Below, piece by piece: positions 1 through 62,334 of a stretch of DNA of 64,000 bases. The stretch comes from Patescibacteria group bacterium (GTDB lineage Bacteria; Patescibacteriota; Microgenomatia; UBA1400; PJMF01). A program made the translations under genes and the position numbers. Every line of letters begins with the position of its first letter. The first letter of the stretch is position 1. The notes beneath the pieces are model-generated. The model saw only the letters and a program-made list of their open reading frames with translations, made no database searches and was not told the DNA's origin. The stretch covers positions 118,236 through 182,235 of the forward strand of contig JAZQJV010000018.1 in the NCBI GenBank assembly GCA_045541795.1, written 5' to 3'.

Positions 1-28
1 CTCAAATGTAGTGGCGGTAAACAACCCC

Positions 29-56
29 TTGACAAAACAAATATTTCTGGTATAAT
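29..56 (+). promoter_or_regulatory. sigma70-type promoter (TTGACA, 16-nt spacer, TGgTATAAT)
   Basis: TTGACA at 29-34 and extended -10 ctggTATAAT at 48-56 read directly. Downstream are an AGGAGG at 139-144, a 16-codon sORF and the terminator at 325-355. Confidence 0.45.
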
Positions 57-324
57 CAGAGTTGTTCTTTGATATTGATTGCCGCTGCCGATTGCATGGC
101 GGTTTGGCGATCCGATAAAGACAAAATCTGGTTTTGCAGGAGGTGGCGGCCAATGATTGTGCGTTTGATGACGACTATGATTACAGATTGGGCGAACATC
201 TAGCTCTCAAAAGAAGTGGGACGACAGATAGGAAAAATGCGCTTTTGGGCAGACTGATGGGCTCTACACTGTCAGTCTAGGAAGCAAAGCTGTACCATTG
301 CAAATTCGGAAATAAGGTTCAATT

Positions 325-355
325 AGCCCCGGAAATAATCCCGGGGCTTTTTTTA
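325..355 (+). terminator. rho-independent terminator
   Basis: GC stem agccccgg/ccggggct with loop aaataat, followed by a T run (cttttttt). Confidence 0.6.
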
Positions 356-388
356 CACAGATACAGGCAGGTAAAACACACAGGTTAA

Positions 389-565
389 GTGGGTAAAGAA
401 TTATCTAGTAATCGCACTGAACACGTAATTTATTTGCTTGACGAGCCAACCACTGGTTTGCATTTTGAGGATGTACAGCGATTGCTTTCGATTTTAAGTT
501 CGCTGGTAGGACAAAACTCCAAGTCATGGACAGGTAAGTTTTTGGTCACTGAATTGGCGCGTTAG
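389..565 (+). pseudogene. uvrA: 3' remnant of excinuclease ABC subunit A (uvrA)
   Basis: Translation gives [31 protein letters not shown]..., matching the C-terminal ABC signature/Walker B region of UvrA ([20 protein letters not shown]). An in-frame stop lies immediately upstream and the sequence degenerates after the motif. There is no upstream uvrA body, and a terminator precedes it. Confidence 0.55.
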
Positions 566-600
566 TCGCAGAGAGTAATGTTTAGTTTTTGTGATGAATT

Positions 601-626
601 ACCCCGACCTTACGGTCGGGGTTATG
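601..626 (+). terminator. GC-rich hairpin, probable retained terminator of former uvrA
   Basis: 8-bp stem ccccgacc/ggtcgggg with loop ttac, followed by TTAT. It lies 36 nt after the remnant's stop codon. Confidence 0.4.
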
Positions 627-834
627 GACAAATGTGATATGAATTATTTTGAACAATTATGTCTACTCAAAATTATAGTGACTACGCCCAGATTAACCTG
701 ATAACACCTATTGAATATGATCACTATTCAATTAGTTTGTTTAGGTTTTATCAATGTGAAAATTAATAAGTTGCCCAGCACGAGTTTGTTATAATCGGCT
801 TTAGGTTAATAATTTGTCTGGTCACCAGGCATAA

Positions 835-1374
835 GTGCCAACATTATTAACTGGAGGTTATATCACTTTTGCCTGGAAATCCATATGCGACCATCATGAC
901 TATAATCGTATTGATTTGCATGCCTTTAGACTGGACAATAGCTTTACTTATACAGTTTCACTTACAGTCAATTATGACAAGGTTAATCTTTTAGAGAAAC
1001 TGCCAGTCTTACCAAAGTTCGAACAATTATTTATAACTTTCAATCAACCACAAATGCTACTGACCGATACTTTATTGTGGCACGCTGATCGTTGTTACCA
1101 ATTTCAGGGACAAACATTCAATTATGTCCTCATCAGAGCACTGGTAAAAGCCAATGGAGAAATTCCCTGGAACGATCAGCTGCTGCTGATGTATGATCCT
1201 GGTCCTCTTCATCTAAGTAGCTCGAAAATAGATGATAGAAGTACTTTAATTTGTCGTGCTATAGATGACCTTAACTTGGAGCTCAAACAAAAACTTAAAA
1301 TGAATTTTACACCGATACACAGACGTAAAAATAAATTTATTAAATTTGATAAACAAATTATACTATCGACATAG
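835..1374 (+). CDS. hypothetical protein (AT-rich island gene)
   Basis: 179-codon ORF (GTG start) with no recognizable motif. A promoter-like tttgtTATAATc lies about 40 nt upstream. Confidence 0.35.
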   Translation: MPTLLTGGYITFAWKSICDHHDYNRIDLHAFRLDNSFTYTVSLTVNYDKVNLLEKLPVLPKFEQLFITFNQPQMLLTDTLLWHADRCYQFQGQTFNYVLIRALVKANGEIPWNDQLLLMYDPGPLHLSSSKIDDRSTLICRAIDDLNLELKQKLKMNFTPIHRRKNKFIKFDKQIILST

Positions 1375-1469
1375 ACTCACTTAGCTGGAGTTACTCTAGG
1401 CTCAGTTTTTGCTTCTCTGGTAGTTTAATATCCCTGTCTAGAAATTAGTCGAGGCTATTAAACGACCGC

Positions 1470-1679
1470 ATGAGACAGAGCACAATAGTAGTACCAGCTC
1501 GCACCGACATCGGGAAAAAATATCGTACTAGCTACGACCCTATATCAGAGCAGGACGTTCACGATTTTATTGCTGCCGTTAAGGCAGATAGTGGATGGGT
1601 ATTGAAGTTTGATGAGGCAAAACAAACAGCCAATGATTTAATAGAGTTGGCCAAATTAGTCAATAAATATCAGGAATAA
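1470..1679 (+). CDS. small hypothetical protein (69 aa)
   Basis: Short ORF in the island with no recognizable domain. Confidence 0.3.
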   Translation: MRQSTIVVPARTDIGKKYRTSYDPISEQDVHDFIAAVKADSGWVLKFDEAKQTANDLIELAKLVNKYQE

Positions 1680-1693
1680 CTGTCTTAAAAGTC

Positions 1694-1722
1694 TTGCATT
1701 TTTAATCAATTTGTGATATAAA
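1694..1722 (+). promoter_or_regulatory. promoter (TTGCAT, 17-nt spacer, TGaTATAAA) for the DUF1016/AlbA_2 operon
   Basis: -35/-10 read directly. The ATG at 1736 lies 13 nt after the -10, giving a near-leaderless transcript. Confidence 0.45.
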
Positions 1723-1735
1723 GACCACATTAATT

Positions 1736-2824
1736 ATGACAAACACAAAAAAGATCCAGACAGTTACTAGTAACGATATGTCGATGTCTAATGATCAAGA
1801 GTATCGGGAATGGTTAGTCGACTTAAAAACAAGATATCAACATAGTCGCATTAAAGCATCTATAAAAATTAATTATGAGGTCATTTTTTATTACTGGTCT
1901 GTTGGTCGTGACATTGTGATTAAAAAAGCCGAATCAAAATGGGGTAGTGGTTTTTATGATAATTTGAGTCGCGATCTACGACGAGAATTACCTGGTATAC
2001 AGGGATTATCAAAAACAAATCTCAAATACATGAAGTACTTTTATGATCTTTTTCCAGATGTGTTTACTGATAAGTCAATTCGTCCACAAGTTGTGGACGA
2101 ATTGGAGCAAATACCTTGGGGACATATCCGATATATTATAGATAAGTGTCGCGGTGATCAACAAAAGGTGATATTTTTCATCAATAAGACCGTGGAAAAC
2201 AACTGGTCGAGAGCAATGCTGCTAAATTTCCTGGATACAGATCTTTACGAGAGGCAAGGGAAGGCGATTACGAATTTTACCAATAAGTTAGCTTCGCCTC
2301 AAGGAGAATTAGCTCAACAGCTTACCAAAGATCCTTACAGTTTTGACTTTCTTACTATGAGAGAAAACTATCAAGAAAAAGAGCTTAAGGATGCCCTGAT
2401 TGCTAATATTGAAAGATTTCTGCTGGAACTTGGCAAAGGTTTTGCTTATATGGGACGGGAATACCGCTTACAAATCGGTGAAACTGAAAAATTTATAGAT
2501 ATGCTCTTTTACAACACTGTCCTGCGTTGTTACGTGGTAGTAGAAGTCAAAGTGGAGAAATTTGAATCCGGACATTTAGGGCAATTGGGATTGTATGTGA
2601 CCGCGGTTAATCATCAGCTCAAAAACGAAACTGACAATCCCACTATCGGTCTGTTGATTTGCAAGAGCAAAGAGAATGTGGTGGCGAAATACTCGCTAGA
2701 AAGCATGGCGGTGCCGATCGGAATATCAGAATATGAGTTGCAAAAAATCTATCCCGCTGATTTCAAGAGTAGTTTGCCAACGATAGAGGAGATAGAGAAT
2801 GAGCTGGCTGATAATAACGATTAG
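1736..2824 (+). CDS. DUF1016/YhcG-family PD-(D/E)xK nuclease (paralog 1)
   Basis: N-terminal YhcG_N-like region (EYREWLVDLKTRYQHSRIKASIKINYE). C-terminal core has the D...EVK pattern (DMLFYNTVLRCYVVVEVKVEKFESGHLGQLGLYV) and the family C-terminal motif GISEYEL. Confidence 0.7.
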   Translation: MTNTKKIQTVTSNDMSMSNDQEYREWLVDLKTRYQHSRIKASIKINYEVIFYYWSVGRDIVIKKAESKWGSGFYDNLSRDLRRELPGIQGLSKTNLKYMKYFYDLFPDVFTDKSIRPQVVDELEQIPWGHIRYIIDKCRGDQQKVIFFINKTVENNWSRAMLLNFLDTDLYERQGKAITNFTNKLASPQGELAQQLTKDPYSFDFLTMRENYQEKELKDALIANIERFLLELGKGFAYMGREYRLQIGETEKFIDMLFYNTVLRCYVVVEVKVEKFESGHLGQLGLYVTAVNHQLKNETDNPTIGLLICKSKENVVAKYSLESMAVPIGISEYELQKIYPADFKSSLPTIEEIENELADNND

Positions 2825-2845
2825 TAAAAATTAAGGTAATAACAT

Positions 2846-4273
2846 ATGTTCACACCTTTTGGCAAGAATCTCGACAATCTAAGTTTTGAAGACATTCAAA
2901 AATTTTGCGATAAAGGTGTTGCTGAAAATATTTATATTGATTACAAGAAAGAAATTAATCAGAAGAATGATCATCTTGCCAAAACTATTGCGTCCTTTGC
3001 TAATACACATGGCGGCTGGATAATAATTGGAGTAGAAGATAAGAATGATCGTCCAAACTCTCCATTTAACGGGATTGACTATACAGATGGAATAGAGTCT
3101 AGTATAACTACTATAATTGTTGACAATATTTATCCATATGTCGAAGTTACATCAAAGGTTATTGTCAACCATGATAATAAAAGAGCTTTTGTTGTAGTGT
3201 ATGTCCCAGAAAGTCATAAAACACCACATTGGATTAACAGCAGAAGGGATCTTTATATTAGAGCTAATACTAGAACAAAAACTGGCAGAGATGATATTAA
3301 GAATAAAAACGAAGACTTGGATATTTACGCCACTTCTGAAAATTGGGAATTCTTAAGAAATAAAAGGGAAAGGTCTCAACAACTGGCAATAGAATTGGAA
3401 ACAGCTTTAAATCGTTTGTTTCTATCATATAAAGATAAAGAAGAACGTTTGTGGTATCAAAATAACGAAAAAGTTAAAAATAATCCGTCGCTGCAAAGTA
3501 TAATATCTGAAGATATGGATACACTCGACTGTGCAGATCCAAGTATCACAACAATTAAAAATAGGCGAGAGTTCAGAAGCGAATGTTATCATGATAACAT
3601 TAGTATTATTGTCCAGCCAGTTTTCCCATCATACGCTATTTCTTCACCGCGTGATTTGAGAGAACACTATTCGTCTAACAGCGGTGCAAACCTCACTAAC
3701 GTTGGTTCACTTGACGAAAACTACAAACTTGATTATTTTCAAAACGGGATAGTAACTTTTTTTACTCCCGACAATAAGACAGGCAACCATTGCGCATTTT
3801 TTGCTCAAGACATCTTTGGTTCGTGCATGGTAAAACACAAGATAGTTCAACACAATCGAAAGAAGATTGATAACTACCAGGGTTATGAAGTGCCGCCAAA
3901 TAGTAACATTATTGACTTTGAATACTTGATAGTTTATATTGAACAATTTTTAAAATATGCATCAGTTTTTTATAAACAAATTGGTTATTTAGGCGAACTT
4001 AGACTTAAGGTGGTCATGAATGTGCCAGAATGGTCATATATGATAATTCATGATTCAACCAAGAATTTTCCGCTTGCATATAGTAATTCTGATAAATATT
4101 TTCTTTGGGAGAAAGTTTTTATTAATGCTGATTTTGTTAACGATCAAGAACGAAATAAAATACTAAATACTATGTATGAAAGTATTGGATTCTTTTTTAA
4201 TTGTGACGAAATTCCTAAACAAATAATTAATAATCTGAGAAAGAATCCAAATAATGCTAATGAGCAACTTTAA
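2846..4273 (+). CDS. AlbA_2 (Schlafen-like) domain protein with large C-terminal region of unknown function
   Basis: The N-terminus (NLSFEDIQKFCDKGVAENIYIDYKKE...TIASFANTHGGWIIIGVEDKND) matches the AlbA_2/divergent-AAA DNA-binding fold signature (sAFANt.GG.iiiGv.d). It starts 21 nt after DUF1016 paralog 1, so is probably co-transcribed. Confidence 0.6.
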   Translation: MFTPFGKNLDNLSFEDIQKFCDKGVAENIYIDYKKEINQKNDHLAKTIASFANTHGGWIIIGVEDKNDRPNSPFNGIDYTDGIESSITTIIVDNIYPYVEVTSKVIVNHDNKRAFVVVYVPESHKTPHWINSRRDLYIRANTRTKTGRDDIKNKNEDLDIYATSENWEFLRNKRERSQQLAIELETALNRLFLSYKDKEERLWYQNNEKVKNNPSLQSIISEDMDTLDCADPSITTIKNRREFRSECYHDNISIIVQPVFPSYAISSPRDLREHYSSNSGANLTNVGSLDENYKLDYFQNGIVTFFTPDNKTGNHCAFFAQDIFGSCMVKHKIVQHNRKKIDNYQGYEVPPNSNIIDFEYLIVYIEQFLKYASVFYKQIGYLGELRLKVVMNVPEWSYMIIHDSTKNFPLAYSNSDKYFLWEKVFINADFVNDQERNKILNTMYESIGFFFNCDEIPKQIINNLRKNPNNANEQL

Positions 4274-4303
4274 CTTCCCGTCTCAAAAACTCCCCAATCA
4301 TGC

Positions 4304-4368
4304 TATAATCAACCTCAAGTAACTGGGTTCGGATTTCCCGCCAGAAACCACCAAAAAATAGGATATTG
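4304..4368 (+). repeat. direct repeat R1: orphan copy of a promoter plus 5'-leader module
   Basis: TATAATCA, 14 nt, then TGGGTtCGGATTTCCCGCCAGAAACCACC and an AAAAA..GGAT..TG tail. It is near-identical to 6839-6907 with the same spacing. No downstream gene follows on the + strand. Confidence 0.6.
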
Positions 4369-4423
4369 AAGTACGCAAATTATATCCATATAAAAACGAT
4401 ATTTTAAGCAAATTATTTGGTAT

Positions 4424-5602
4424 TTAATCATTATTGTTAATGTTTAAAAGTAATTGTAATCTTTTCATGATTTCATCGAATGTTATTATTATATTTCTGG
4501 AAACACTCTTTCTGAATAAGTTGAACGATCTTTCTTGTTCTTCAAGAAGTCCTGATTTGTTACCGATAATAATTATTCCTAATGGATCAAGAGCATTCAA
4601 GCGGTTATCTTCATAATCTTTTCCAATAAGAGTTGAAAAATTATCACTCGCAATTCTAATTTGATTTTCTAGTTGAACTATCGCACCACTCAATTCGTCA
4701 GACATGGAATAGCACACATTCTCTCCAACGGCATCTGAATTGCCTCTATATTGATGTCCAATAATGGCACTTTGCGGTGTTTTAATTTCAATAACTGCAA
4801 AGCTTTTATTTGAAAGATTTTGCAAAAGAAAATCAGCGGCGACTCCTCCTTGGCCGTTTCTTCCACGACTGTTCTTTCCTCCTAGATATGTTTCGCCATT
4901 CAAATAACAGACTGGACAATAAAACAAACTCTCAAAAATCCACTGATTTTCTGTGAAGAATGCTTGCCAAAAGTTTTCTTTTTGGTTATTATTCATATTT
5001 TTCGCAATTGTATTAATTGCATTCTGCAATTTGGCTAGTAATATAATATTTTCTAATACTCTGATGTTTCCTTTTCCTAAATCTCTTAACTTGGTAATAA
5101 CCATTTCCTTATTTTTAATATCGCCAATTTGCAATAAAACACTTTCTATATTTCCTTCTCCAATAGATATTGTTGTGGTTCCAAATTTAATACCGTTTTC
5201 ATTTAGAGTCTCTCTAATTAACGGTAAATGCTCAAAGAGATTTTTCATGGCTTCACCATCAAGGTTGAGATCATAAAATTCTCCTTTTCTTAACTTAGTA
5301 ACAGATAGGCCTTTATAACTTTGCCAGTTGTCATTAATTCCTTTTCTTTCCCATCTGAAACCTCCTCGCAATGGTTTGTCAGTTTGAGATGGGTCTACCC
5401 ACTTTGGGTAAAAAAGTAATCTTGTGCTTTCAGTTTCTTTTAGTATAATTGGGGAAATATCAGCGGTTTTATTGGAAGTAGATTTTATTGTTATATCTTT
5501 TGATTCTTTCTGTTTGTCTGTAAATCCCTTGCGAGGTAGCGTGAAATCTATTTCTCCTGAAATATTGCTAAAATCATATTTTGGAGTCATGGTGGCTTTC
5601 AA
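4424..5602 (-). CDS. DUF4263-type PD-(D/E)xK nuclease, Shedu (SduA)-like
   Basis: C-terminal GGVAADFLLQN...SFAVIEIKTP (D..EIK nuclease core) and the terminal block IIIIGNKSGLLEEQERSFNLF...IITFDEIM fit the DUF4263 pattern (viiGr...IlTYDdL). The gene is 392 aa with a variable N-terminal domain. It lies 6 nt downstream of DUF1016 paralog 2. Confidence 0.55.
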   Translation of the reverse strand: MKATMTPKYDFSNISGEIDFTLPRKGFTDKQKESKDITIKSTSNKTADISPIILKETESTRLLFYPKWVDPSQTDKPLRGGFRWERKGINDNWQSYKGLSVTKLRKGEFYDLNLDGEAMKNLFEHLPLIRETLNENGIKFGTTTISIGEGNIESVLLQIGDIKNKEMVITKLRDLGKGNIRVLENIILLAKLQNAINTIAKNMNNNQKENFWQAFFTENQWIFESLFYCPVCYLNGETYLGGKNSRGRNGQGGVAADFLLQNLSNKSFAVIEIKTPQSAIIGHQYRGNSDAVGENVCYSMSDELSGAIVQLENQIRIASDNFSTLIGKDYEDNRLNALDPLGIIIIGNKSGLLEEQERSFNLFRKSVSRNIIITFDEIMKRLQLLLNINNND

Positions 5603-5608
5603 TCAAAA

Positions 5609-6736
5609 TTACCTATTTGCTTCTAGCAACTTTTTCTCTATCTCCTCTATCGTCGGCATCGTTCCTTCCACCTTTTGCGGATACAACTTCTCCAGTTCGT
5701 ACTCCGAAATTCCCAATGGTTGATTGCTAGATTCCAAAGCATACTGAGCGATTAAATTATCTTTTTGCTTGCAAATGAGCAAACCGATAGTCGGATTATC
5801 TCGTCCTTCTTTTTGTAAAAGGTGATTGCAAGAAACCACGTAACCGCCAAGTTGCCCCAAATCGGCAAAATCAAATTCGCCAATTTTCACTTCAACCACA
5901 ACGTAACAAGACAACTGTAAATTATAGAAAAGCAAATCAATAAATTTTTCTTTCTCGCCGATTTGCAGTCGATACTCTTTTCCCACATACGCGAAGCCCG
6001 TGCCAAGTTCTAATAAAAATTTGGTTATATTTTCTAGCAGGGCATCTTTTAATTTACGTTCATTGTATTTATCGGTAATACCAGTAAAAGCAAAATTATA
6101 TGGATCTTTTGTTAATTCCTGAGCTAAATCGCTAGTAACATTGGGTAAGGTTTTGCCAAAATTCGTCAATGCTTTTCCTCGTCGATCATAAAGATCGGTT
6201 TCAATAAAATTGAGTAGCATATCTCGGCTCCAACCATTTTCTATTGTTTGGTGAACAAAAAAGAGTGCTTTTTGTGGTTCTGTTTTGAATTTATCAATTA
6301 ACAGCTTATGATGGCCCCACGGAACAGAAAAAATGTCGCTTTCAATTTTCTCAATGACTTGCTGAGTAATTACATTACTTTCTATTTGCTCCCCAACTTG
6401 GGGAGCAATTTCGAAATATTGATGGTAAAGTATATAAAAGTTTTTCATGTACAACAAATTTGTCGGCGAAAAACACGTTGCGTCAGGATTGAGAGTTTTA
6501 AGGTCTCGGCTGAGATTTTTCATGAAACCACTGCTCCATTTACTTTCGGCTTTCATTACCACAATGTCTCTGCCCAAATCATAGTAAAAACGAAGCATTT
6601 CCCGATTAACTTTTACTGCTGCTCTAACTTGGCTCAAGCGATAACGAGAAGAAAGCTTCCCAATCCACGAGGCATAATTTTCATCTAGAATTGTTAGTGA
6701 CTGAACTTGTTTTGCAACCTGTTTTTTCTCTGTCAT
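5609..6736 (-). CDS. DUF1016/YhcG-family PD-(D/E)xK nuclease (paralog 2)
   Basis: About 60% identical by eye to paralog 1 over its full length (shared ...KAESKW.SGF..NLSRDL..., PWGH, ENGWSR.MLLNF, DLLFYN..L.CYVVVEVK, GISEYELEKLYP). Confidence 0.7.
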   Translation of the reverse strand: MTEKKQVAKQVQSLTILDENYASWIGKLSSRYRLSQVRAAVKVNREMLRFYYDLGRDIVVMKAESKWSSGFMKNLSRDLKTLNPDATCFSPTNLLYMKNFYILYHQYFEIAPQVGEQIESNVITQQVIEKIESDIFSVPWGHHKLLIDKFKTEPQKALFFVHQTIENGWSRDMLLNFIETDLYDRRGKALTNFGKTLPNVTSDLAQELTKDPYNFAFTGITDKYNERKLKDALLENITKFLLELGTGFAYVGKEYRLQIGEKEKFIDLLFYNLQLSCYVVVEVKIGEFDFADLGQLGGYVVSCNHLLQKEGRDNPTIGLLICKQKDNLIAQYALESSNQPLGISEYELEKLYPQKVEGTMPTIEEIEKKLLEANR

Positions 6737-6747
6737 AGTGGCTATTA

Positions 6748-6776
6748 CTTATAGCACAATAACGCTATTTTGTCAA
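6748..6776 (-). promoter_or_regulatory. promoter (TTGACA, 17-nt spacer, TATAAG) for the DUF1016/Shedu-like operon; near-leaderless
   Basis: Reverse complement reads TTGACAaaatagcgttattgtgcTATAAGtaatagccactATG. The start codon lies about 11 nt after the -10. Confidence 0.5.
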
Positions 6777-6838
6777 TACTGATAATTAATTATTATTGGC
6801 ATTTATTTTCAATTCTTGCAAAAACAACTTCATACTGT

Positions 6839-6907
6839 TATAATCAGTTTCAAATAATTGGGTGCGGATTTCCCGCCAGAAACCACCCCAAAAAGATGGG
6901 ATTACTG
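6839..6907 (+). repeat. direct repeat R2: promoter plus 5' leader of the zinc-ribbon/TM2 gene
   Basis: TATAATCA, 14 nt, then TGGGTgCGGATTTCCCGCCAGAAACCACC and the AAAAAgATgGGATtAcTG tail. The ATG at 6923 follows. Confidence 0.6.
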
Positions 6908-6922
6908 CGATGAAAGTGAAAC

Positions 6923-7054
6923 ATGACAGATGAAAAAACAAAATACTGTAAACATTGCGGTTCGCTTATTGATGTAGAATTGCATAATATGCCCGAAGTG
7001 TGGCAAGCAGGTCGAACAAGTAAAAGCCGAGCTTCCAAATGTAGTGATCAATAA
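6923..7054 (+). CDS. zinc-ribbon protein fragment (CxxC half), probably the frameshifted N-terminal part of the TM2 gene
   Basis: MTDEKTKYCKHCGSLIDVELHN... terminates at TAA 7052. The second CxxC half (CIICPKCGKQVEQ) is encoded in the frame of the downstream TM2 ORF, starting just after an in-frame TAG at 6975. Confidence 0.4.
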   Translation: MTDEKTKYCKHCGSLIDVELHNMPEVWQAGRTSKSRASKCSDQ

Positions 7055-7256
7055 CAATAACACCAATTCGAATATAAACTATGCTGGTGCTGTGGGGAGC
7101 GGGCGGCCTATCAATAAGTGGATAGCTTTGGGTTTATGTCTTTTTCTGGGCATATTCGGTGCTCATAAGTTTTATGAAGGAAAGATTGGCATGGGAATAT
7201 TGTATTTGTTTACATTTGGTTTGTTTAGTCTTGGTTGGTTTTTAGATATTTTTTAA
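7044..7256 (+). CDS. TM2 domain membrane protein (C-terminal part of split gene)
   Basis: GAHKFYEGKIGMGILYLFTFGLFSLGWFLDIF matches the TM2 domain signature. GTG start at 7044. Its upstream frame continues stop-free back to 6978 and encodes CPKCG. Confidence 0.55.
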   Translation: MINNNNTNSNINYAGAVGSGRPINKWIALGLCLFLGIFGAHKFYEGKIGMGILYLFTFGLFSLGWFLDIF

Positions 7257-7355
7257 TCCTAACAAAGCCTAATCCTTATTACATATAATACTTTTACATT
7301 TGCGTTTTTATTATAACTACGTTATAATAACACAAACTTTAAGGAAAATATAAAC

Positions 7356-8429
7356 ATGAAAAATCATCGAAAATTCCATCCTCGCATTATTGTCAATATC
7401 ATCTGTCTTTTTTCATTGGCATTATCTCACATTATTTTTTCGCTACCGATTAAAATAATTGATACAGTTTATGCCGTCGAGCGTGAAACTGTCACTGTGA
7501 GCCGTGTGATTGATGGTGATACAATCGTTTTGAATGATGGGCGAAAGGTTAGATATATTGGAATTGATACACCAGAAACAGTTCATCCAACAAAAAATGT
7601 GCAGTGTTTTGGGAAACAAGCCAGTAACAAAAATAGAGAATTAGTCCTTGGTAAAACTGTGGAACTGGAAAAAGATATCAGTGAAACTGATCGCTATGGA
7701 CGTTTACTCAGATATGTATATTTGGATGGCGTCATGATTAATCATAAATTAGTCGCTGAAGGTTATGCCACAACCGTAACCTATCCTCCAGATGTTAAGT
7801 ATAAAGAAGAATTCTCCAAAGCTCAGGCGCAGGCAAGACAAGCAAGACTTGGGCTATGGGGTAATGAATGCAACGAAAGCAGCAGCACTCACGCATCCTC
7901 AAACAACAATGCTAGCTCAAATACAAATAAAATGGATTCGTCAAGCACATCGTCATCATCTCAAAACAACAAAACTCAAAATGACCATGAAGGCAACCAA
8001 GCTTCTACTCAACCAACTAACACTAGCGCACAAAAATGTCCATCAAATTGTAGTGAGGCCAAAAGCATGGGAATGGTTAACATTACACCGTCGCATCCAT
8101 GCTGGCAAGAAAAATTTGATGGCGATAAAGATGGCGTGGGTTGTGAAAGTGACAACCGGTCTACCAATACAAAAACAACTAACAAATCCAATAATGTCAA
8201 TAAACAGACCAGTGCTACGCCGGCACCCACGCCAGTGCCAAGTCGCGCCCCAACGCCAGAACCAACCCCACCGCCTACGTCAGTGCCAGCTCCAGCTGCG
8301 CCAACCCAATCTTGTCCAAATAACTGTACCCAAGCAAAGGCAATGGGAATGGCCAATATGACACCTTCTCATCCTTGTTGGCAATCTAAATTTGACCGAG
8401 ATAAAGACGGTATTGGTTGCGAAGACTAG
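7356..8429 (+). CDS. secreted thermonuclease (SNase-like) with two C-terminal Excalibur calcium-binding domains
   Basis: N-terminal TM/signal segment. SNase core (VSRVIDGDTIVLNDGRKVRYIGIDTPE...DRYGRLLRYVYLDGVMINHKLVAEGYA). A PT-rich linker is followed by two copies of C.xNC..AK.MGMxN.TPSHPCWQ.KFD.DKDG.GCE (Excalibur DxDxDG...CE). Confidence 0.7.
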   Translation: MKNHRKFHPRIIVNIICLFSLALSHIIFSLPIKIIDTVYAVERETVTVSRVIDGDTIVLNDGRKVRYIGIDTPETVHPTKNVQCFGKQASNKNRELVLGKTVELEKDISETDRYGRLLRYVYLDGVMINHKLVAEGYATTVTYPPDVKYKEEFSKAQAQARQARLGLWGNECNESSSTHASSNNNASSNTNKMDSSSTSSSSQNNKTQNDHEGNQASTQPTNTSAQKCPSNCSEAKSMGMVNITPSHPCWQEKFDGDKDGVGCESDNRSTNTKTTNKSNNVNKQTSATPAPTPVPSRAPTPEPTPPPTSVPAPAAPTQSCPNNCTQAKAMGMANMTPSHPCWQSKFDRDKDGIGCED

Positions 8430-8438
8430 AAAGTAAAA

Positions 8439-9119
8439 ATGTCACAAAAAGATAATAGCAAACATTCTTGCAGAATAATCATGGCCGCATTGCTAGTGCT
8501 TCTAAGCATTGCATTGCTGCATAAATCTTTTTTTGCTGCCGCCTTCACTATCTGCTACGCATATCTCATCTCGCCACTATCAATTCAATTGGTAAGTAAA
8601 ATATGTAAGAAAGAAAATGAGAAATGGCTATATTCAACCATGACTTTTATTTTTGCTCTTTGCTGGATGACCACAATTCAAACTGGTCAGCCACAAATGG
8701 ATAATGTGTTAACGCAAAATAGTGAAAAAAACGCATCGCTAGAGAATGCGTCAACACAAAATAATGAAAAAATCGCTTCACTAGAAAAAGAGCTCCAATC
8801 AGTTAAGAACGAAAGAGATGAAATTCAAGCAAACAACCAAAAAAGAGCCATTTCAGCTGCCAAATCATATTTGGAATACAGTCCAATGTCGAGCCGAGAG
8901 TTGATTAAGCAACTCGAGTTAGAAGAATTTTCTCATGAAGACGCAGCATACGGTGTAGAGCATGCTGATATCAATTGGAACGATCAAGCATCACGGTCAG
9001 CAGTCCTCTTTATTGAGTTTGCTAATCCGTCAACCGAAGAATTAAAAAAACAACTTGAGTACGAAGGTTTCACAAGCAACGAAATAAAATTCGCCATTGA
9101 GCATAATAGTAATGGGTAA
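8439..9119 (+). CDS. membrane protein with tandem Ltp-family (host cell surface-exposed lipoprotein-like) domains
   Basis: Two N-terminal hydrophobic segments, then two repeats fitting the Ltp pattern (AISAAKSYLEYSPMSSRELIKQLELEEFSHEDAAYGVEHADINWNDQA, then SRSAVLFIEFANPSTEELKKQLEYEGFTSNEIKFAIEH). Confidence 0.6.
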   Translation: MSQKDNSKHSCRIIMAALLVLLSIALLHKSFFAAAFTICYAYLISPLSIQLVSKICKKENEKWLYSTMTFIFALCWMTTIQTGQPQMDNVLTQNSEKNASLENASTQNNEKIASLEKELQSVKNERDEIQANNQKRAISAAKSYLEYSPMSSRELIKQLELEEFSHEDAAYGVEHADINWNDQASRSAVLFIEFANPSTEELKKQLEYEGFTSNEIKFAIEHNSNG

Positions 9120-9148
9120 ATGACTCTATTGCTTCCAGTAAGGAAAGT

Positions 9149-9490
9149 ATGCCATCTACCAAAAGTTACCTTAATCACCTTCTAACTCAATTCTCGCAGT
9201 TGGATGATATTTCTTACCGCTCGATGATGGGGGAGTATATCATTTATTTCAAAGGCAAAGTAGTAGGTGGAATTTATGATGATCGATTTTTGGTCAAGAC
9301 AACAAAATCTGCACTCGCGTTGATGCCAAACACAAGCAAAGAATTACCATATCCCGGTGCGAAAGAAATGTTGTTGGTAGACGATACGGGAGACAAAGTA
9401 TTTTTACGCGAGCTGCTGACCGCGATATATGAGGAGCTGTCAGTGGTAAAGAAAAAAGAAAGCACATTAAAACGTTTATTAACGAATTGA
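9149..9490 (+). CDS. TfoX/Sxy N-terminal domain protein
   Basis: MMGEYIIYFKGKVVGGIYDDRFLVK resembles the TfoX_N core (MFGG.G.y.ng.mFa.i.dd.LylK). The ORF is 113 aa and has no C-terminal TfoX domain. Confidence 0.45.
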   Translation: MPSTKSYLNHLLTQFSQLDDISYRSMMGEYIIYFKGKVVGGIYDDRFLVKTTKSALALMPNTSKELPYPGAKEMLLVDDTGDKVFLRELLTAIYEELSVVKKKESTLKRLLTN

Positions 9491-9502
9491 CATTCATTGT
9501 CC

Positions 9503-15851: not shown

Positions 15852-16175
15852 ATGGGTAAGGTACAAGCACATAAAAGAGCAGAAAAAGCCAAAAGACAGG
15901 TGAATTTTCAGCTGGATAAAGTCAAGAATCCAGACATGTTTGAATTTGAAGGCATTGTGGAGGACTGTCTGCCCAATACCAGTTTCCGCCTTAGCGTCAC
16001 CAGTTCCTCGCTCGAACCGCTTGTAGGTAAAAAACTGCTGGCGACACTAGCCGGCAAAATGCGCCTCTACCGCATCCGGGTGATGCCCGGTGATCAGGTC
16101 AAAGGATATGTGTCAAAATATGATCTAACTAAGGCAAAAATCACCTATAGATCCACAAAAAAGACTTCGGCGTAA
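15852..16175 (+). CDS. infA: translation initiation factor IF-1 with N-terminal extension
   Basis: The core (LPNTSFRL...GKMRLYRIRVMPGDQVKGYVSKYDLTKAKITYR) aligns to IF-1 (LPNTMFRV...GKMRKNYIRILTGDKV...PYDLSKGRIVFR). Confidence 0.75.
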   Translation: MGKVQAHKRAEKAKRQVNFQLDKVKNPDMFEFEGIVEDCLPNTSFRLSVTSSSLEPLVGKKLLATLAGKMRLYRIRVMPGDQVKGYVSKYDLTKAKITYRSTKKTSA

Positions 16176-20389: not shown

Positions 20390-22195
20390 ATGCAGTTTAG
20401 TAAATTAAGCCAGACGCTACTTGACATCGAAGCAATCAACGCGCGCTTGCAAATCACTCAGATTTTATCAAAACTCTGGCCGCAGCTGGACGAGCGTGAA
20501 TTATGGCAAGCTGCCAACCTTATCCAGGGACAATTACAACCGCCCTATGAACAGCTTGTTTTTAGTCTGTCCGTGAAAATGATCGCCCGCGCTCTGGTGC
20601 AGCTGGCGCTCGCCAATGGTGGCTTGGCTGGCGGCGTAAGTGTGGATTTATTTGGGCAAGCTGATGAACAGTCACTTACTGATCAAATTAAAGCGATACA
20701 TCGCCGTTTTGGTGACTGGGGCGAGACGGCAGCGTCAGTGCACACCGAGCTTTTTGGTGCAAAAGGCTCTAATTTGAGCATTAATGATGTGTATACCAGA
20801 CTGACCGCGATTGCCAAGATCAGTGGCGACGGTTCACAACAGGCTAAGCTTGATGCCTTGGTCTCTTTACTGTCTGCAATTGATGCCTCGAGTGCTAAAT
20901 TTGTGATCAGGATGGTGATCGGCAAACTGCGTTTGGGTTTTTCTACGATGACGATTTTAGACAGCCTTTCGTGGGCGGTTTGCGGTGATAAATCCGAAAG
21001 CAAACTGCTAGAAAGCGCCTGGCAAAAAAAAGCTGATGTTGGCTTACTGGCGGCCGCCTACTTGCCACTGCAAAACCTCACGCCGCTCAAGCGCCGGGAA
21101 AAATTAGCTGCAGACTATCACGCGAGCGTGGGCGTACCTTTAGTGCCGGCTTTGTGCCAACGGCTCAATTCTACCACTGACATCATCGAAAAGGTGGGCG
21201 CTACCATCGCTGAGCCTAAATATGATGGCATGCGCATCCAAATTCACGTCCGCCGTCAGGGTGGGCTGCAAGTTTTTGCTTTCACCAGGAGTTTGGAAAA
21301 TGTTTCTCACATGTTTCCAGAGCTACAAGAATTTGCCAGTAGCCTCGATGTGGATGCCGCCATTTTTGACTCAGAAGCTGTGGGCTTTAATGCTCACACC
21401 GGGCAGATGTTGCCTTTCCAAGAGACCATTAGTCGGCGTCGGCTTCACGACGTCGATCAAAAAGCTCAGTCCATCAAAATGAAATTTTTCATTTTTGACG
21501 TTTTACTTTTAAATGAGCAGGAACTCATCACGACGCCCTTGGCTGAGCGCAAAAAACTACTGCGCCAAACAGTTGCCGATAGCGACGTCGCGCAGGTGAC
21601 GAGTTTTATCGTCACTAGTGATCCCGGACAGCTGCGCCAGTTCCATGAACGCCAGCTCCAGCTTGGTCTGGAGGGGATGGTGGCCAAAGGGGAGAGCAGT
21701 GATTATCAAAGCGGCCGCAAAGGCTGGCACTGGGTCAAGATTAAAGAAGCAGAAGGTACTCGTGGCAAGCTCAATGACACCCTTGATTTAGTAGTCATGG
21801 GTTATTATTATGGTCAGGGCCGGCGGCATGATATGGGCGTGGGAGCGATTCTTACAGGCGTGTTGGCAGATAATGGTGATATTGTCACGATCAGCAAAAT
21901 CGGCACCGGCTTTACTGATGAAAATCTTTCTTCCTTCCACTCTCAAGCAGAAAATTACCGTACAGATACCAAGCCCACCGACTACCAAGTAGGCAAGCAG
22001 CTGATACCGGATGTGTGGTTGAGGCCGCACCTAGTAGCCGAAATTGCTGCTGACGAGCTTACTCGCTCTACCATGCATACAAGCGGCTACGGCCTCCGTT
22101 TCCCCCGCATTATCCGGTGGCGAGACGATAAAACCGCTGCTCAAGCTACCACCCGCAGCGAGCTGGCATCCATTACTATAGATAAAGGAGATTAA
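20390..22195 (+). CDS. ATP-dependent DNA ligase
   Basis: Adenylation motif I (EPKYDGMRIQIHV). Downstream OB-fold region. About 250-aa N-terminal DNA-binding domain. The near-leaderless promoter tgTGgTACAAT lies 7 nt upstream. Confidence 0.7.
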   Translation: MQFSKLSQTLLDIEAINARLQITQILSKLWPQLDERELWQAANLIQGQLQPPYEQLVFSLSVKMIARALVQLALANGGLAGGVSVDLFGQADEQSLTDQIKAIHRRFGDWGETAASVHTELFGAKGSNLSINDVYTRLTAIAKISGDGSQQAKLDALVSLLSAIDASSAKFVIRMVIGKLRLGFSTMTILDSLSWAVCGDKSESKLLESAWQKKADVGLLAAAYLPLQNLTPLKRREKLAADYHASVGVPLVPALCQRLNSTTDIIEKVGATIAEPKYDGMRIQIHVRRQGGLQVFAFTRSLENVSHMFPELQEFASSLDVDAAIFDSEAVGFNAHTGQMLPFQETISRRRLHDVDQKAQSIKMKFFIFDVLLLNEQELITTPLAERKKLLRQTVADSDVAQVTSFIVTSDPGQLRQFHERQLQLGLEGMVAKGESSDYQSGRKGWHWVKIKEAEGTRGKLNDTLDLVVMGYYYGQGRRHDMGVGAILTGVLADNGDIVTISKIGTGFTDENLSSFHSQAENYRTDTKPTDYQVGKQLIPDVWLRPHLVAEIAADELTRSTMHTSGYGLRFPRIIRWRDDKTAAQATTRSELASITIDKGD

Positions 22196-23813: not shown

Positions 23814-23890
23814 AATTGGTGACTCCAGAGGGATTCGAACCCTCGATCTTTTGGATGAAAACCAAATATCCTGGACCGCTAGACGATGGA
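23814..23890 (-). tRNA. tRNA-Glu (anticodon UUC), CCA encoded
   Basis: Reverse complement GGCTCCATCGTCTAGCGGTCCAGGATATTTGGTTTTCATCCAAAAGATCGAGGGTTCGAATCCCTCTGGAGTCACCA. It has a 7-bp acceptor stem (one GU pair), GG in the D-loop, anticodon stem TTTGG/CCAAA with loop TTTTCAT (U33, UUC, A37) and T-arm GAGGG-TTCGAAT-CCCTC. Confidence 0.8.
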
Positions 23891-37212: not shown

Positions 37213-38655
37213 TTAATCTTCCACCACGTATGCCACCAGCTCATCACCAGCTTGGAAGTCGAGCTTTTTTTGCCGGAAAGTGATACCACCCTCAGTTGGC
37301 GCTTTAAAATGATCCACTTCGAGTTTACCGTGCATCATTGACGAGACAATGGGATCGGCGATGATCTGTCCGTCACGCTTGAGATGGTATTTATCATTTT
37401 TCTTGAGTTCACCACTGGTCACTTTCACGCCCGCAATCCGCAAGCCTTTCATCTCAAAAATTTCTTGGATCGTAGCCGTGCCCGTCACTACCTCATCAAT
37501 GGTTGGCTCCAAAAGCTTGAGCATCTTTTTTTGGATGTATTCAATCAACTCATAAATAATGTCATATGATTTAATCTTGACACCATGCGCTTTGGCCACT
37601 TGGGTGATATGTGGACTGACTTTCACTTGGAAACTTAAAATCTTTGCCCCGGCAGTGTGTGCTAATTCTACATCTGTATCCGTCACTTCGCCCACACCTT
37701 GGCTAATGATCTCGACACTGTCCGGATCGCAGTTGGCAGCAATTGCCTCCAGCGTTCCCTGGGTGTCAGCTTTGAGGATAAATTTGAGCTTGTTGCTATC
37801 GCCTAAAACAGAAAAATCAATTCCGGCATAAGGATCATTACTGACACTTTGCTTCTCCACTGCTGGGCTGTGGTCTTGAGGATGGCACGTGACGATCGAA
37901 CCGACGGCAGGCACATCTTTGAAACCAATTATTTGTCCCGGCTCACCAGGAAGAAGTTGCTGTACCGGTTTACCAAAATCATTGAGGATGTTTTTGACTT
38001 TACCACTCGTCTCTGCCGTGTAAATATCATCACGCACTTTGAGCGTGCCCGACTGGACGATAATATTAGCGACCGCTCCCCGGCGTGGATCTTTGGCCGA
38101 CTCAATCACTACAGCCTGGAAGTCATCATTTGGATCGGCTTGCAGCTCTAGCAAATCAGCCGTAATGACCAAAGTTTCCAATAGCTTGTCAATTCCTTTG
38201 CCGGTTTTGGCGGATATTTCTACTGCTTCGGTGTCGCCGCCAAAATCAGTCACCACTACATCATGCTCGGCCAGCTGTGACTTGACGTTGATCACATTAA
38301 TGTCTGGTAAATCAATTTTATTGATGGCTACCACCACCGGTACACCAGCCGTTTTGATGTGACGGATAGACTCGATGGTTTGCGGTTTGACGCCATCATT
38401 AGCGGCCACTACTAGTACTACAATATCCGTGATCGCTGCACCTCGCTCCCGCATCGCGCTAAAAGCAGCGTGGCCTGGTGTATCAATAAAAGTCAGCTGA
38501 GCATCGCCCACCTTTACCTGGTAAGCGCCGATATGCTGAGTGATCCCCCCTTGTTCTTTGGCCGTGAGCCGCGAGCGGCGCAAGAAGTCCAAAAGCGTCG
38601 TCTTACCGTGGTCTACATGGCCCATGATGGTGATGACTGGGGATCTTTTGCTCAT
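37213..38655 (-). CDS. infB: translation initiation factor IF-2 (short form)
   Basis: G-domain [26 protein letters not shown]-terminal IF-2 beta-barrel domains. Overlaps the nusA stop. Confidence 0.8.
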
Positions 38656-61830: not shown

Positions 61831-62334
61831 ATGCACACCATGGAAGAAAGATATACACCCATCATTACAATTAGCGTCGTGATTGCAGCTTTGTTTGCGA
61901 CTTTGGTCTTTGTCCGGCTACATCGTACCCCGCTCGCCACCCCAGAGACATATAATGAAGTTTCACCCAGTGCTGAGCTGGCATTAGATTTTAATGCTCA
62001 CCGTCATTATATCTTTAGTCGTGACGACTGCATCCACTGTCAAAACCTAGAAAGCTACCTTGATAGTCATGAAGGCAGCCGTTCTCGTCTCGACATCGAG
62101 ATAGCCAATCTCTCTCAAACGGCCACTGCCAACTACTTCTATAATAAAGCCGTGGAATTTAGTGAAGTTTGCGGCCAGGATTCCAGCCAGTTGGGTACAC
62201 CGTTCCTCTATATCAATGATGAGAGTGTGCCCATGAGTGAACGTTGCATCGCTGGCGATACGCCGATCATGGCTTACTTTGACGGTTTGCTCGCGCCAGA
62301 GACAGCCAGTATGCCTGCTGCCGATAATCAATGA
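61831..62334 (+). CDS. membrane-anchored thioredoxin/glutaredoxin-fold protein (CxxC)
   Basis: N-terminal TM (IITISVVIAALFATLVFV) then YIFSRDDCIHCQNLESYL (CxxC redox motif), with GTPFLYIND downstream. Confidence 0.45.
   Translation: MHTMEERYTPIITISVVIAALFATLVFVRLHRTPLATPETYNEVSPSAELALDFNAHRHYIFSRDDCIHCQNLESYLDSHEGSRSRLDIEIANLSQTATANYFYNKAVEFSEVCGQDSSQLGTPFLYINDESVPMSERCIAGDTPIMAYFDGLLAPETASMPAADNQ

What the first reader, a model, noticed from the sequence alone, without database searches (positions are those of the whole stretch)
4424..5602. Shedu-like DUF4263 nuclease in a reduced-genome lineage
The C-terminal half carries the D..(E)IK core (AADFLLQN...SFAVIEIKTP) and the terminal IIIIGNKSG...IITFDEI block that I associate with DUF4263/SduA. 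The N-terminal 200 aa is unique. Defense genes are costly in very small genomes. A Shedu-type effector under a leaderless consensus promoter suggests it is actively maintained.
Basis: partly seen in the sequence, partly recalled or inferred. Interest (0 to 1): 0.5.

Follow-up and report, generated by a model that had tools for sequence, protein, structure and literature searches.

The report
Ordinary Shedu nuclease in a Patescibacteria island
The gene is an intact, textbook Shedu (SduA) anti-phage nuclease of the same subtype as the solved Bacillus cereus enzyme, sitting in a recently acquired low-GC island of a small-genome (Patescibacteria/CPR) bacterium; this is a correct but unsurprising identification.

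Summary
The ORF at 4424-5590/5602 (-) is a full-length Shedu nuclease. It matches Pfam SduA_C (E 9e-22) and also SduA_N (E 7e-12), and PADLOC SduA (E 1e-68). It aligns over both halves to B. cereus SduA (8TI8, E 1e-36; family profile E 5.5e-84). The only significant Foldseek hits of its AlphaFold model are 8TI8/8TI9. All published catalytic motifs are present (E205, D253, E268-x-K270, Q306), as is the sensor-domain arginine (R57).

Only a disordered extension of about 30 aa lacks homologues. This is a Type 1A (sPC4/Whirly-sensor) Shedu.

RpoA and LepA relatives place the window in Patescibacteria/CPR. The closest SduA relatives (42-54% identity) are mostly in CPR genomes, and there the gene usually sits inside Type I R-M operons. 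The window has no hsd genes.

sduA has no promoter of its own. It starts 6-18 nt after a co-oriented YhcG/DUF1016 nuclease gene, which carries TTGACA-17-TGcTATAAG 11 nt before its ATG. The YhcG pairing is not conserved elsewhere.

Gene GC is 32.5% against 48% for the genome, which indicates recent horizontal acquisition. I rate this a new member of a known kind, of low interest.

The parts
4424..5590 (-). sduA coding sequence. It is 388 aa from ATG 5590; an alternative TTG at 5602 gives 392 aa and has an AGG 9 nt upstream. The stop codon is at 4424-4426.
   Evidence: ORF list. An identical 388-aa protein, P0001, is on record from an NCBI contig of 288,690 bp. Pfam SduA_N + SduA_C. PADLOC SduA E 1.3e-68. 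No other in-frame ATG/GTG/TTG occurs before about residue 115 (read).
5495..5590 (-). Lineage-specific N-terminal extension (aa 1-32). It is predicted to be disordered and has no homologue.
   Evidence: Most homologues are about 351 aa and begin at window residue about 33. pLDDT is below 50 for residues 1-30. No library match starts before residue 26. No significant tblastn hit.
5183..5482 (-). SduA_N sensor domain (sPC4/Whirly-like beta-sheet plus helix). It contains R57 (5420-5422), the equivalent of B. cereus R29.
   Evidence: PF21407, 45.8 bits, model positions 1-101 of 102. phmmer alignment to 8ti8_A residues 4-127. The model has strands 32-91 followed by helix 112-132, with pLDDT 81-90. 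R57 is nearly invariant among 28 homologues. R29 is required for B. cereus immunity (Gu et al.).
4469..4984 (-). SduA_C / DUF4263 PD-(D/E)xK nuclease domain. Motif I is E205 (4976-4978), motif II is D253 (4832-4834), motif III is E268 (4787-4789) and K270 (4781-4783), and motif IV is Q306 (4673-4675).
   Evidence: PF14082, 78.3 bits. The residues are invariant or nearly invariant in alignment A1. They align one-to-one with B. cereus E204, D249, E264, K266 and Q295 (motif list from Gu et al.). Foldseek TM 0.77-0.80 to the 8ti9 nuclease domain. The codons were checked.
5609..6736 (-). yhcG2, the co-oriented upstream gene. It is a DUF1016_N + YhcG_C PDDEXK nuclease and a PADLOC candidate (PDC-S02). 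It is probably co-transcribed with sduA.
   Evidence: Pfam E 7.5e-57 and 1.6e-29. PADLOC PDC-S02 E 5e-150. Its stop TAA at 5609-5611 lies 6-18 nt before the sduA start.
6748..6776 (-). Near-consensus sigma-70-type promoter with an extended -10: TTGACA-17-TGcTATAAG. It ends 11 nt before the yhcG2 ATG. It is the likely promoter of the yhcG2-sduA bicistron and would give a very short leader.
   Evidence: Sequence read. My own scan, which allowed one mismatch in the -10, also found the same architecture at 15852, 40090 and 61840. The tool scan missed it because position 6 of the -10 is G. Function is inferred, not shown.
4284..4358 (+). Copy 1 of a 75-nt direct repeat (D1) that brackets the sduA-yhcG2 cassette. 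It lies between the Schlafen-type gene stop and the sduA stop.
   Evidence: the repeat finder D1, 79% identity. A 23-nt core is exact in both copies, with 0 matches expected by chance. Meaning unknown.
6819..6893 (+). Copy 2 of the D1 repeat. It lies just beyond the yhcG2 promoter and 30 nt upstream of a plus-strand zinc-ribbon/TM2 gene.

Best explanation
The ORF encodes a functional single-protein Shedu immune nuclease (SduA) of the Type 1A class, the class of the solved Bacillus cereus enzyme.

By homology, it should form a homotetramer through its C-terminal DUF4263 PD-(D/E)xK domains. The N-terminal sPC4/Whirly-like domains and a helical linker project outwards and hold the enzyme inactive. 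In that state the motif II aspartate (D253 here) sits on a mobile loop away from the E205/E268/K270/Q306 site. Sensing of invading DNA by the N-terminal domain (R57 surface) would release the block, complete the active site and allow metal-dependent cleavage of the invader's DNA.

The gene was acquired horizontally as part of a low-GC island. It is most likely transcribed as the second gene of a yhcG2-sduA bicistron from a near-consensus, short-leader promoter at 6748-6776.

Shown here: family and subtype membership, the intact ORF, conservation of all catalytic and sensor residues, the predicted fold, the genomic context and the composition.
Inferred from the B. cereus and E. coli work: oligomeric state, the activation mechanism, the DNA target and anti-phage function.
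For: - Pfam SduA_C 78.3 bits and SduA_N 45.8 bits, both above the cutoff of 27.
- 15 PADLOC SduA models hit, best E 1.3e-68.
- phmmer against the PDB: 8ti8_A SduA E 1e-36, covering query residues 30-152 and 154-383. The family profile gives E 5.5e-84 over chain residues 6-380.
- AlphaFold model, mean pLDDT 74.5. The seven Foldseek hits with E <= 0.001 are all 8ti8/8ti9, at probability 1.00 and target TM 0.64-0.80; the next hit has E 0.09.
- Motifs E205, D253, E268, K270 and Q306 are invariant or nearly invariant in 28 homologues. They map onto B. cereus E204, D249, E264, K266 and Q295.
- R57 corresponds to R29, which is needed for immunity.
- The motif II loop (residues 232-251) has pLDDT below 50, as expected for the mobile loop described by Gu et al..
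- The family is large: 1,618 50%-identity representatives at E <= 0.001.
- Island context: two YhcG nucleases, a Schlafen/AlbA_2 protein and an SNase-Excalibur protein.
- Composition: 32.5% GC against 48%.
Against: - There is no experimental evidence for this protein.
- Identity to the characterised B. cereus enzyme is only about 25-28%.
- The helical linker is about 26 residues shorter than in B. cereus. The tetramer-to-octamer switch may therefore differ.
- Residues 145-174 of the linker are modelled with low confidence.
- The two published mechanisms differ: double-strand cleavage by an octamer in B. cereus, and end-directed nicking in the E. coli enzyme, which has a different N-terminal domain. 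The exact mode of cleavage therefore cannot be assigned.
- Close relatives usually sit inside Type I R-M operons, which are absent here. The gene may be working outside its usual context.
Confidence: 0.85

Rival explanations
1. yhcG2 and sduA form an obligate two-protein system. By analogy with the bicistronic KELShedu system, the YhcG PDDEXK protein would act as sensor or partner and SduA as the second nuclease.
For: - The genes are co-oriented and separated by only 6-18 nt, with a single good promoter in front of yhcG2.
- A paralogous yhcG1 (53% identity) with the same promoter architecture is followed 22 nt later by another nuclease-type gene, a Schlafen/AlbA_2 protein. This gives two parallel 'YhcG + partner' modules.
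- Two-component Shedu systems exist (PMC12577705).
Against: - The pairing is not conserved. None of 20 genome loci encoding SduA relatives has a YhcG, Schlafen or SNase homologue within 8 kb.
- None of 80 metagenome loci encoding 66-81% identical YhcG2 relatives has an SduA within 4 kb.
- This SduA already carries its own complete sensor domain (SduA_N), unlike KELB, whose short N-terminus binds KELA.
- YhcG is a 375-aa nuclease, not a 12.6-kDa DNA-binding protein.
- Both genes belong to clades that ride as independent passengers in Type I R-M operons.
Confidence: 0.07
2. The gene is an orphaned passenger. It would be a cargo gene torn out of a Type I R-M operon and dropped into this island by recombination. 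On this reading it is intact only because the event is recent, and it is not (or not yet) contributing to defence in this host.
For: - In 8 of 10 close genome loci and in all 4 metagenome contigs examined, one of which (L103) is the same locus as genome locus L010, the orthologue lies in the order hsdM-sduA-hsdS-hsdR (a Bro-N gene between hsdM and sduA in some loci); where the called gene coordinates were read the genes overlap or nearly abut sduA.
- The window has no hsdM, hsdS or hsdR in 64 kb and no remnants in 1-10.5 kb.
- Composition is strongly foreign, with GC3 of 0.25.
- Decayed genes lie nearby: a UvrA/ABC-like fragment at 389-565 and a frameshifted zinc-ribbon/TM2 gene at 6923-7256.
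- Diverged 75-nt direct repeats bracket the cassette.
Against: - The ORF is full length, with every catalytic and sensor residue intact.
- It sits behind a strong promoter-like site.
- Stand-alone members of the same clade exist (L003, L009).
- B. cereus SduA works as a single gene.
- Being recently acquired does not argue against being functional.
Confidence: 0.07
3. It is not a defence gene. It would be a housekeeping or repair PD-(D/E)xK nuclease that merely shares the DUF4263 fold.
For: PD-(D/E)xK nucleases serve many roles. The closest non-Shedu structural relative cited for the domain is the mismatch nuclease EndoMS (Gu et al.).
Against: - Homology extends over the full length, including the Shedu-specific N-terminal domain.
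- The gene has a patchy, island-borne distribution and foreign composition.
- Relatives are embedded in R-M operons.
- No housekeeping synteny is seen.
Confidence: 0.01

Closest known systems
Bacillus cereus B4264 Shedu SduA (PDB 8TI8, 8TI9, 8TIA; Type 1A Shedu of Gu et al., bioRxiv 10.1101/2023.08.10.552793)
   Same: It has the same three-part architecture: an SduA_N sPC4/Whirly-type sensor, a helical linker and a DUF4263 nuclease. All PD-(D/E)xK motifs (I E, II D, III ExK, IV Q) and the sensor arginine are conserved. The GGK motif II loop is present. It is the best and only significant PDB match by both sequence and fold.
   Different: Identity is only about 25-28%. The linker is about 26 aa shorter. 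There is an extra disordered N-terminal extension of about 30 aa. The host is a CPR bacterium rather than a Firmicute. The gene is encoded behind a YhcG gene.
Shedu genes embedded in Type I restriction-modification operons (602 of 5,499 Shedu loci lie inside R-M systems, Gu et al.)
   Same: The nearest relatives of the window protein (42-54% identity) are of this kind, inserted between hsdM and hsdS.
   Different: The window copy has no hsdM, hsdS or hsdR within 64 kb. Its neighbour is a YhcG nuclease instead.
Escherichia coli SduA (PDB 8PS4/8PS5; Loeff et al., bioRxiv 10.1101/2023.08.10.552762)
   Same: It shares the DUF4263 nuclease core and the tetramer-forming domain family. The profile matches the C-terminal domain at E 1.3e-8.
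   Different: The N-terminal domain is different (an end-binding clamp); only query residues 228-346 match. The end-directed nicking mechanism cannot be transferred with confidence.
KELShedu two-component system (PMC12577705)
   Same: It is a bicistronic operon in which the DUF4263 nuclease is the second gene, after a very short spacer.
   Different: The partner there is a 12.6-kDa dsDNA-binding protein that binds a short N-terminal beta-sheet of the nuclease. Here the upstream gene is a 375-aa YhcG nuclease, the pairing is not conserved, and SduA has its own sensor domain.

Membership tests
Shedu / SduA (DUF4263, PF14082) | C-terminal DUF4263 (SduA_C) domain scoring above the curated threshold | tested here: met
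   PF14082: 78.3 bits against a cutoff of 27, model positions 2-158 of 159. PADLOC SduA PDLC00399 E 1.3e-68.
Shedu / SduA (DUF4263, PF14082) | Complete PD-(D/E)xK active site: motif I E, motif II D, motif III ExK, motif IV Q | tested here: met
   E205, D253, E268, K270 and Q306 align with B. cereus E204, D249, E264, K266 and Q295. They are invariant or >=90% conserved in 28 homologues.
Shedu / SduA (DUF4263, PF14082) | Predicted fold matches the solved Shedu nuclease domain | tested here: met
   All seven Foldseek hits with E <= 0.001 are 8ti8/8ti9, at probability 1.00 and target TM up to 0.80. The model has mean pLDDT 74.5, and most 10-residue blocks of the nuclease core average above 85 (lower at residues 281-290 and 311-340).
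Shedu / SduA (DUF4263, PF14082) | Homotetramer assembled through the DUF4263 domains | not testable with these tools
   Only monomer prediction is available. Oligomeric state is inferred.
Shedu / SduA (DUF4263, PF14082) | Nuclease-dependent protection against phage | not testable with these tools
   This requires an experiment.
Shedu / SduA (DUF4263, PF14082) | Location in a defence island or mobile region | tested here: met
   The gene sits in a roughly 9-kb low-GC region (36% against 48%). That region also holds two YhcG/PDC-S02 genes, a Schlafen AlbA_2 protein and an SNase-Excalibur protein.
Type 1A Shedu (sPC4/Whirly N-terminal domain; Gu et al.) | N-terminal SduA_N / sPC4-Whirly-like domain | tested here: met
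   PF21407: 45.8 bits against a cutoff of 27, model positions 1-101 of 102. Aligned to 8ti8_A residues 4-127. The model shows a beta-sheet followed by a long helix at pLDDT 81-90.
Type 1A Shedu (sPC4/Whirly N-terminal domain; Gu et al.) | Conserved arginine on the putative nucleic-acid-binding surface (B. cereus R29) | tested here: met
   R57 aligns with chain R31, which is native R29 (numbering offset checked on D249). It is >=90% conserved.
Type 1A Shedu (sPC4/Whirly N-terminal domain; Gu et al.) | Helical linker domain between sensor and nuclease that dimerises and restrains activation | tested here: inconclusive
   Helices are predicted at 148-197. Part of this region has pLDDT below 50, and it is about 26 aa shorter than in B. 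cereus.
R-M-embedded Shedu (Type I operon passenger) | sduA flanked by hsdM and hsdS/hsdR in one operon | tested here: not met
   tblastn with HsdM, HsdS and HsdR from L103 and L104 finds nothing in the 64-kb window (E <= 1e-4) and no remnants in 1-10.5 kb. The feature is met in 8 of 10 close genome loci and in all 4 metagenome contigs examined.
KELShedu-type two-component Shedu | Conserved small DNA-binding partner gene co-occurring with the nuclease | tested here: not met
   The upstream gene is a 375-aa YhcG nuclease. Co-occurrence is 0 of 20 and 0 of 80 in related loci.

The most novel reading that the evidence does not exclude
The island would carry two parallel 'YhcG + effector' bicistrons: yhcG1 followed by a Schlafen/AlbA_2 gene, and yhcG2 followed by sduA. 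Each has the same short-leader extended -10 promoter. They could represent a modular design in which a YhcG/DUF1016 nuclease is a shared partner, for example a trigger or DNA-processing step, for interchangeable effector nucleases. The 75-nt D1 repeats would mark the cassette-exchange site. On this reading the Shedu here would work as part of a two-nuclease system not yet described.
Probability: 0.05. Interest if true: 0.55.

Novelty: new member of a known kind. Interest (0 to 1): 0.15.

Why it matters
This matters little beyond annotation. It adds a clean example showing that Patescibacteria/CPR genomes of about 1 Mb carry canonical Type 1A Shedu nucleases, and that one subclade circulates among CPR genomes, usually as a passenger inside Type I R-M operons. 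That agrees with published surveys, which find Shedu inside R-M loci and a high density of defence genes per Mb in CPR.

Two things could be useful in practice:
- The compact variant (about 350-390 aa, short linker) is a possible comparison for structure-function work on Shedu activation.
- The near-consensus short-leader promoters in this window are a resource for anyone studying transcription in CPR.

Tried and rejected
1. Exact-sequence look-ups of the window's SduA and LepA found no contig. The source genome therefore could not be named. Lineage was inferred from RpoA and LepA relatives. A genome with 89% identical LepA, GCA_017431625.1, is labelled only 'bacterium'.
2. NCBIfam has no model that hits SduA, YhcG2 or the Schlafen-type protein.
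3. There is no SduA relative in 50,697 phage records. Plasmid hits are distant, at <=34% identity.
4. I tested whether the N-terminal extension is a relic of an hsdM 3' end. The only hit is 39% identity over 33 aa at E 0.15, and it falls at an internal HsdM position rather than the C-terminus. I rejected the idea as not significant.
5. I tested the D1 repeat in several ways:
   - As a tRNA 3' fragment (possible att site): ARAGORN and Rfam find only tRNA-Glu at 23817, and there is no matching acceptor 5' strand.
   - As a structured RNA: z-scores of -0.2 to -2.2, inconsistent between the two copies.
   - As a protein remnant: no hit.
   - In viral contigs: no match.
   It remains unexplained.
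6. I looked for a promoter for sduA inside the 3' end of yhcG2 and found none.

Full report
**The observation**

The minus strand carries an uninterrupted ORF from TTG 5602 or ATG 5590 down to a stop at 4424-4426, giving 392 or 388 aa. An identical 388-aa protein is on record from an NCBI contig of 288,690 bp. There is no other in-frame ATG, GTG or TTG before about residue 115 (sequence). Residue numbers below use the 388-aa form.

**Family membership**

- Pfam gives SduA_C (PF14082) at E 9.2e-22, 78.3 bits against a cutoff of 27, covering essentially the whole model.
- Fifteen PADLOC SduA models hit, the best at E 1.3e-68.
- The window protein alone matches B. cereus SduA (8ti8_A) at E 1e-36, in two stretches: 30-152 to 4-127, and 154-383 to 155-378.
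- A profile of 28 homologues matches the same chain at E 5.5e-84 over residues 6-380. It matches the E. coli enzyme 8ps4 only in the nuclease domain, at E 1.3e-8.
- An AlphaFold2 model has mean pLDDT 74.5, with most 10-residue blocks of the two folded domains averaging 80-95.
- Foldseek returns seven hits with E <= 0.001, all chains of 8ti8 or 8ti9, at probability 1.00 and target TM 0.64-0.80. The next hit has E 0.09.

**Residue-level check**

Gu et al. (bioRxiv 10.1101/2023.08.10.552793) define the B. cereus motifs as I E204, II D249, III E264/K266 and IV Q295. They show that D249 and E264 mutants lose immunity, and so does the N-terminal-domain mutant R29. PDB chain numbering is offset by +2; I checked this on D249.

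From the alignment, the window equivalents are E205, D253, E268, K270, Q306 and R57. All are invariant or at least 90% conserved across 28 homologues. The depositors' inactive construct 8ti9 carries A in place of the E of 'IEIK', which is the residue that aligns with E268.

The GGK-containing motif II loop (residues 232-251) is the one low-confidence stretch inside the nuclease domain. This agrees with the mobile loop described for B. cereus.

The protein is therefore a Type 1A Shedu, the class with an sPC4/Whirly sensor. Only residues 1 to about 30 are unique:
- Homologues are typically about 351 aa and start near window residue 33.
- No hit among 1.84 billion representatives begins before residue 26.
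- The extension is predicted to be disordered.

The linker is about 26 aa shorter than in B. cereus.

**Host lineage**

Apart from one 'Pseudomonadales' MAG on a 3.6-kb contig, the named relatives of the window's RpoA are all CPR:
- Microgenomates group, 59%.
- Pacebacteria, 56% and 53%.
- Patescibacteria group, 51-53%.
- Woesebacteria, 50%.

LepA gives the same picture less sharply. The 'reduced-genome lineage' is therefore supported.

It is not an anomaly for Shedu. A scan of GTDB species representatives found the closest relatives (42-50% identity) in Saccharibacteria, Paceibacteria, Peregrinibacteria and Parcubacteria MAGs, plus single MAGs labelled Gammaproteobacteria, archaeon and 'uncultured bacterium'. 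More distant relatives (30-35% identity, plus one partial match) are in Actinomycetota, Saccharimonadales and a Burkholderiaceae MAG.

A published groundwater survey reports that CPR have fewer defence systems per genome but a higher density per Mb (PMC12259885). The family is large, with 1,618 50%-identity representatives at E <= 0.001.

**Promoter and operon**

sduA begins 6 nt (TTG) or 18 nt (ATG) after the TAA stop of a co-oriented YhcG/DUF1016 PDDEXK gene at 5609-6736 (Pfam E 7.5e-57; PADLOC candidate PDC-S02 E 5e-150).

The only promoter-like match at the sduA start has the ATG inside its spacer. The regional count of such matches is at chance level.

In front of yhcG2, however, lies TTGACA (6776-6771), 17 nt, TGcTATAAG (6756-6748), 11 nt, then ATG 6736. 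My own scan found the same short-leader architecture at three other genes in the window: 15852 (IF-1), 40090 and 61840. yhcG1 has TTGCAT-17-TGaTATAAA-13-ATG.

sduA is most simply the second gene of a bicistron.

**Is YhcG a partner?**

- None of the 20 genome loci with SduA relatives encodes a YhcG, Schlafen or SNase homologue within 8 kb.
- None of the 80 metagenome loci with 66-81% identical YhcG2 relatives encodes an SduA within 4 kb.
- Instead, the close SduA relatives sit inside Type I R-M operons. All four metagenome contigs examined, one of which (L103) is the same locus as genome locus L010, show hsdM-(Bro-N)-sduA-hsdS-hsdR, with sduA overlapping hsdS, and hsdM where the two are adjacent. 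Eight of ten close genome loci show the same order. Two loci are stand-alone.
- 32 of 80 YhcG2-relative loci (24 of the 51 that are at least 6 kb long) also have Type I R-M genes within 4 kb.
- Gu et al. already reported 602 of 5,499 Shedu loci inside R-M systems.
- The window has no hsd genes in 64 kb and no remnants in the island.

So two typical R-M 'passenger' genes are juxtaposed here without the R-M system. This is co-location in an island rather than a conserved two-gene system. A KELShedu-like partnership (PMC12577705) remains a low-probability rival.

**Acquisition**

- sduA has 32.5% GC and GC3 of 0.25. lepA, rpoA and dnaG have GC3 of 0.46-0.54.
- Positions 500-9500 average 36% GC, against 48% for the rest of the window.
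- The island also holds yhcG1, a Schlafen AlbA_2 protein, an SNase-Excalibur protein, an Ltp-type lipoprotein and an HD protein.
- It is bordered at the window start by a degraded UvrA/ABC-like fragment.
- A 75-nt direct repeat (79% identity, with a 23-nt exact core) brackets the sduA-yhcG2 cassette. I could not assign it a function.

All this points to recent horizontal transfer, not long-term retention under genome reduction.

**Verdict**

The embellishments (unique N-terminus, own leaderless promoter, costly maintenance) are not supported. The gene is a new member of a known kind.

Mechanistic statements (tetramer, allosteric control by the N-terminal domain, DNA cleavage) are inferences from the B. 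cereus and E. coli studies. They were not tested here.

Noticed in passing
window 4284-4358 and 6819-6893 (+): A 75-nt direct repeat (79% identical, with a 23-nt exact core CGGATTTCCCGCCAGAAACCACC) brackets the sduA-yhcG2 cassette. Each copy carries a TGnTATAAT extended -10 on the plus strand. Copy 2 lies 30 nt upstream of a zinc-ribbon/TM2 gene. Copy 1 would point antisense into the 3' end of sduA. It has no Rfam, tRNA, protein or viral-contig match and no convincing RNA fold.
   Followed up: partly
window 1736-2824 (+) and 2846-4273 (+): A second YhcG/DUF1016 paralogue (53% identical to yhcG2) has the same short-leader promoter type (TTGCAT-17-TGaTATAAA-13-ATG). It is followed 22 nt later by a 475-aa Schlafen/AlbA_2-domain protein. 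This forms a module parallel to yhcG2-sduA and convergent with it.
   Followed up: partly
window 6923-7256 (+): This is a zinc-ribbon + TM2-domain gene split by a frameshift near 6970-6980. The ORF from ATG 6923 reads MTDEKTKYCKHCGSLIDVEL.... A second frame, from 6978, reads NCIICPKCGKQVEQ... and runs into the TM2 ORF 7044-7256 (PF05154, E 1.4e-17). It is either a pseudogene or an assembly error.
   Followed up: partly
window 1-800: A degraded ABC-ATPase/UvrA-like fragment (ORF 389-565, '...[18 protein letters not shown]...') is surrounded by stop codons in all frames, at the edge of the low-GC island. Pfam gives only a weak AAA_15 hit (E 0.03).
   Followed up: no
window 15852, 40090, 61840 and 6736 (start codons): Several genes have near-consensus -35/-10 hexamers whose -10 ends only 6-11 nt before the start codon. 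Examples are IF-1 (TTGACA-16-TATAAT-6-ATG) and the gene at 61840 (TTGACA-16-TAAAAT-7-ATG). This suggests that leaderless or very short-leader mRNAs are common in this organism.
   Followed up: partly
loci L001, L002, L004-L008, L010, L103-L106: In the CPR-centred subclade of Type 1A Shedu, the gene is inserted between hsdM and hsdS of Type I R-M operons. In the contigs with called gene coordinates, sduA overlaps hsdS, and hsdM where the two are adjacent. In some loci a Bro-N domain gene sits between hsdM and sduA.
   Followed up: yes
loci L021-L100 (relatives of window 5609-6736): YhcG2 has 66-81% identical relatives on many contigs whose record names include 'human gut metagenome', on JGI (Ga...) metagenome contigs of unstated source, and on others. 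This is far closer than any SduA relative (54% or less), so the two genes of the bicistron have different histories. 32 of the 80 loci carry Type I R-M genes nearby.
   Followed up: partly
window 7356-8429 (+) and 8439-9119 (+): A predicted SNase + tandem Excalibur protein with a long low-complexity S/T/N/P-rich linker (PADLOC 'SNc+LTD' candidate, E 3e-39) is followed by an Ltp-type surface lipoprotein. Both lie in the same low-GC region.
   Followed up: no
window 20390-22195 (+) and 37213-38655 (-): The window encodes an ATP-dependent DNA ligase (601 aa). It also encodes a short IF-2 (480 aa) that lacks the long N-terminal region of typical bacterial IF-2. Both fit a streamlined CPR-type genome.
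   Followed up: no
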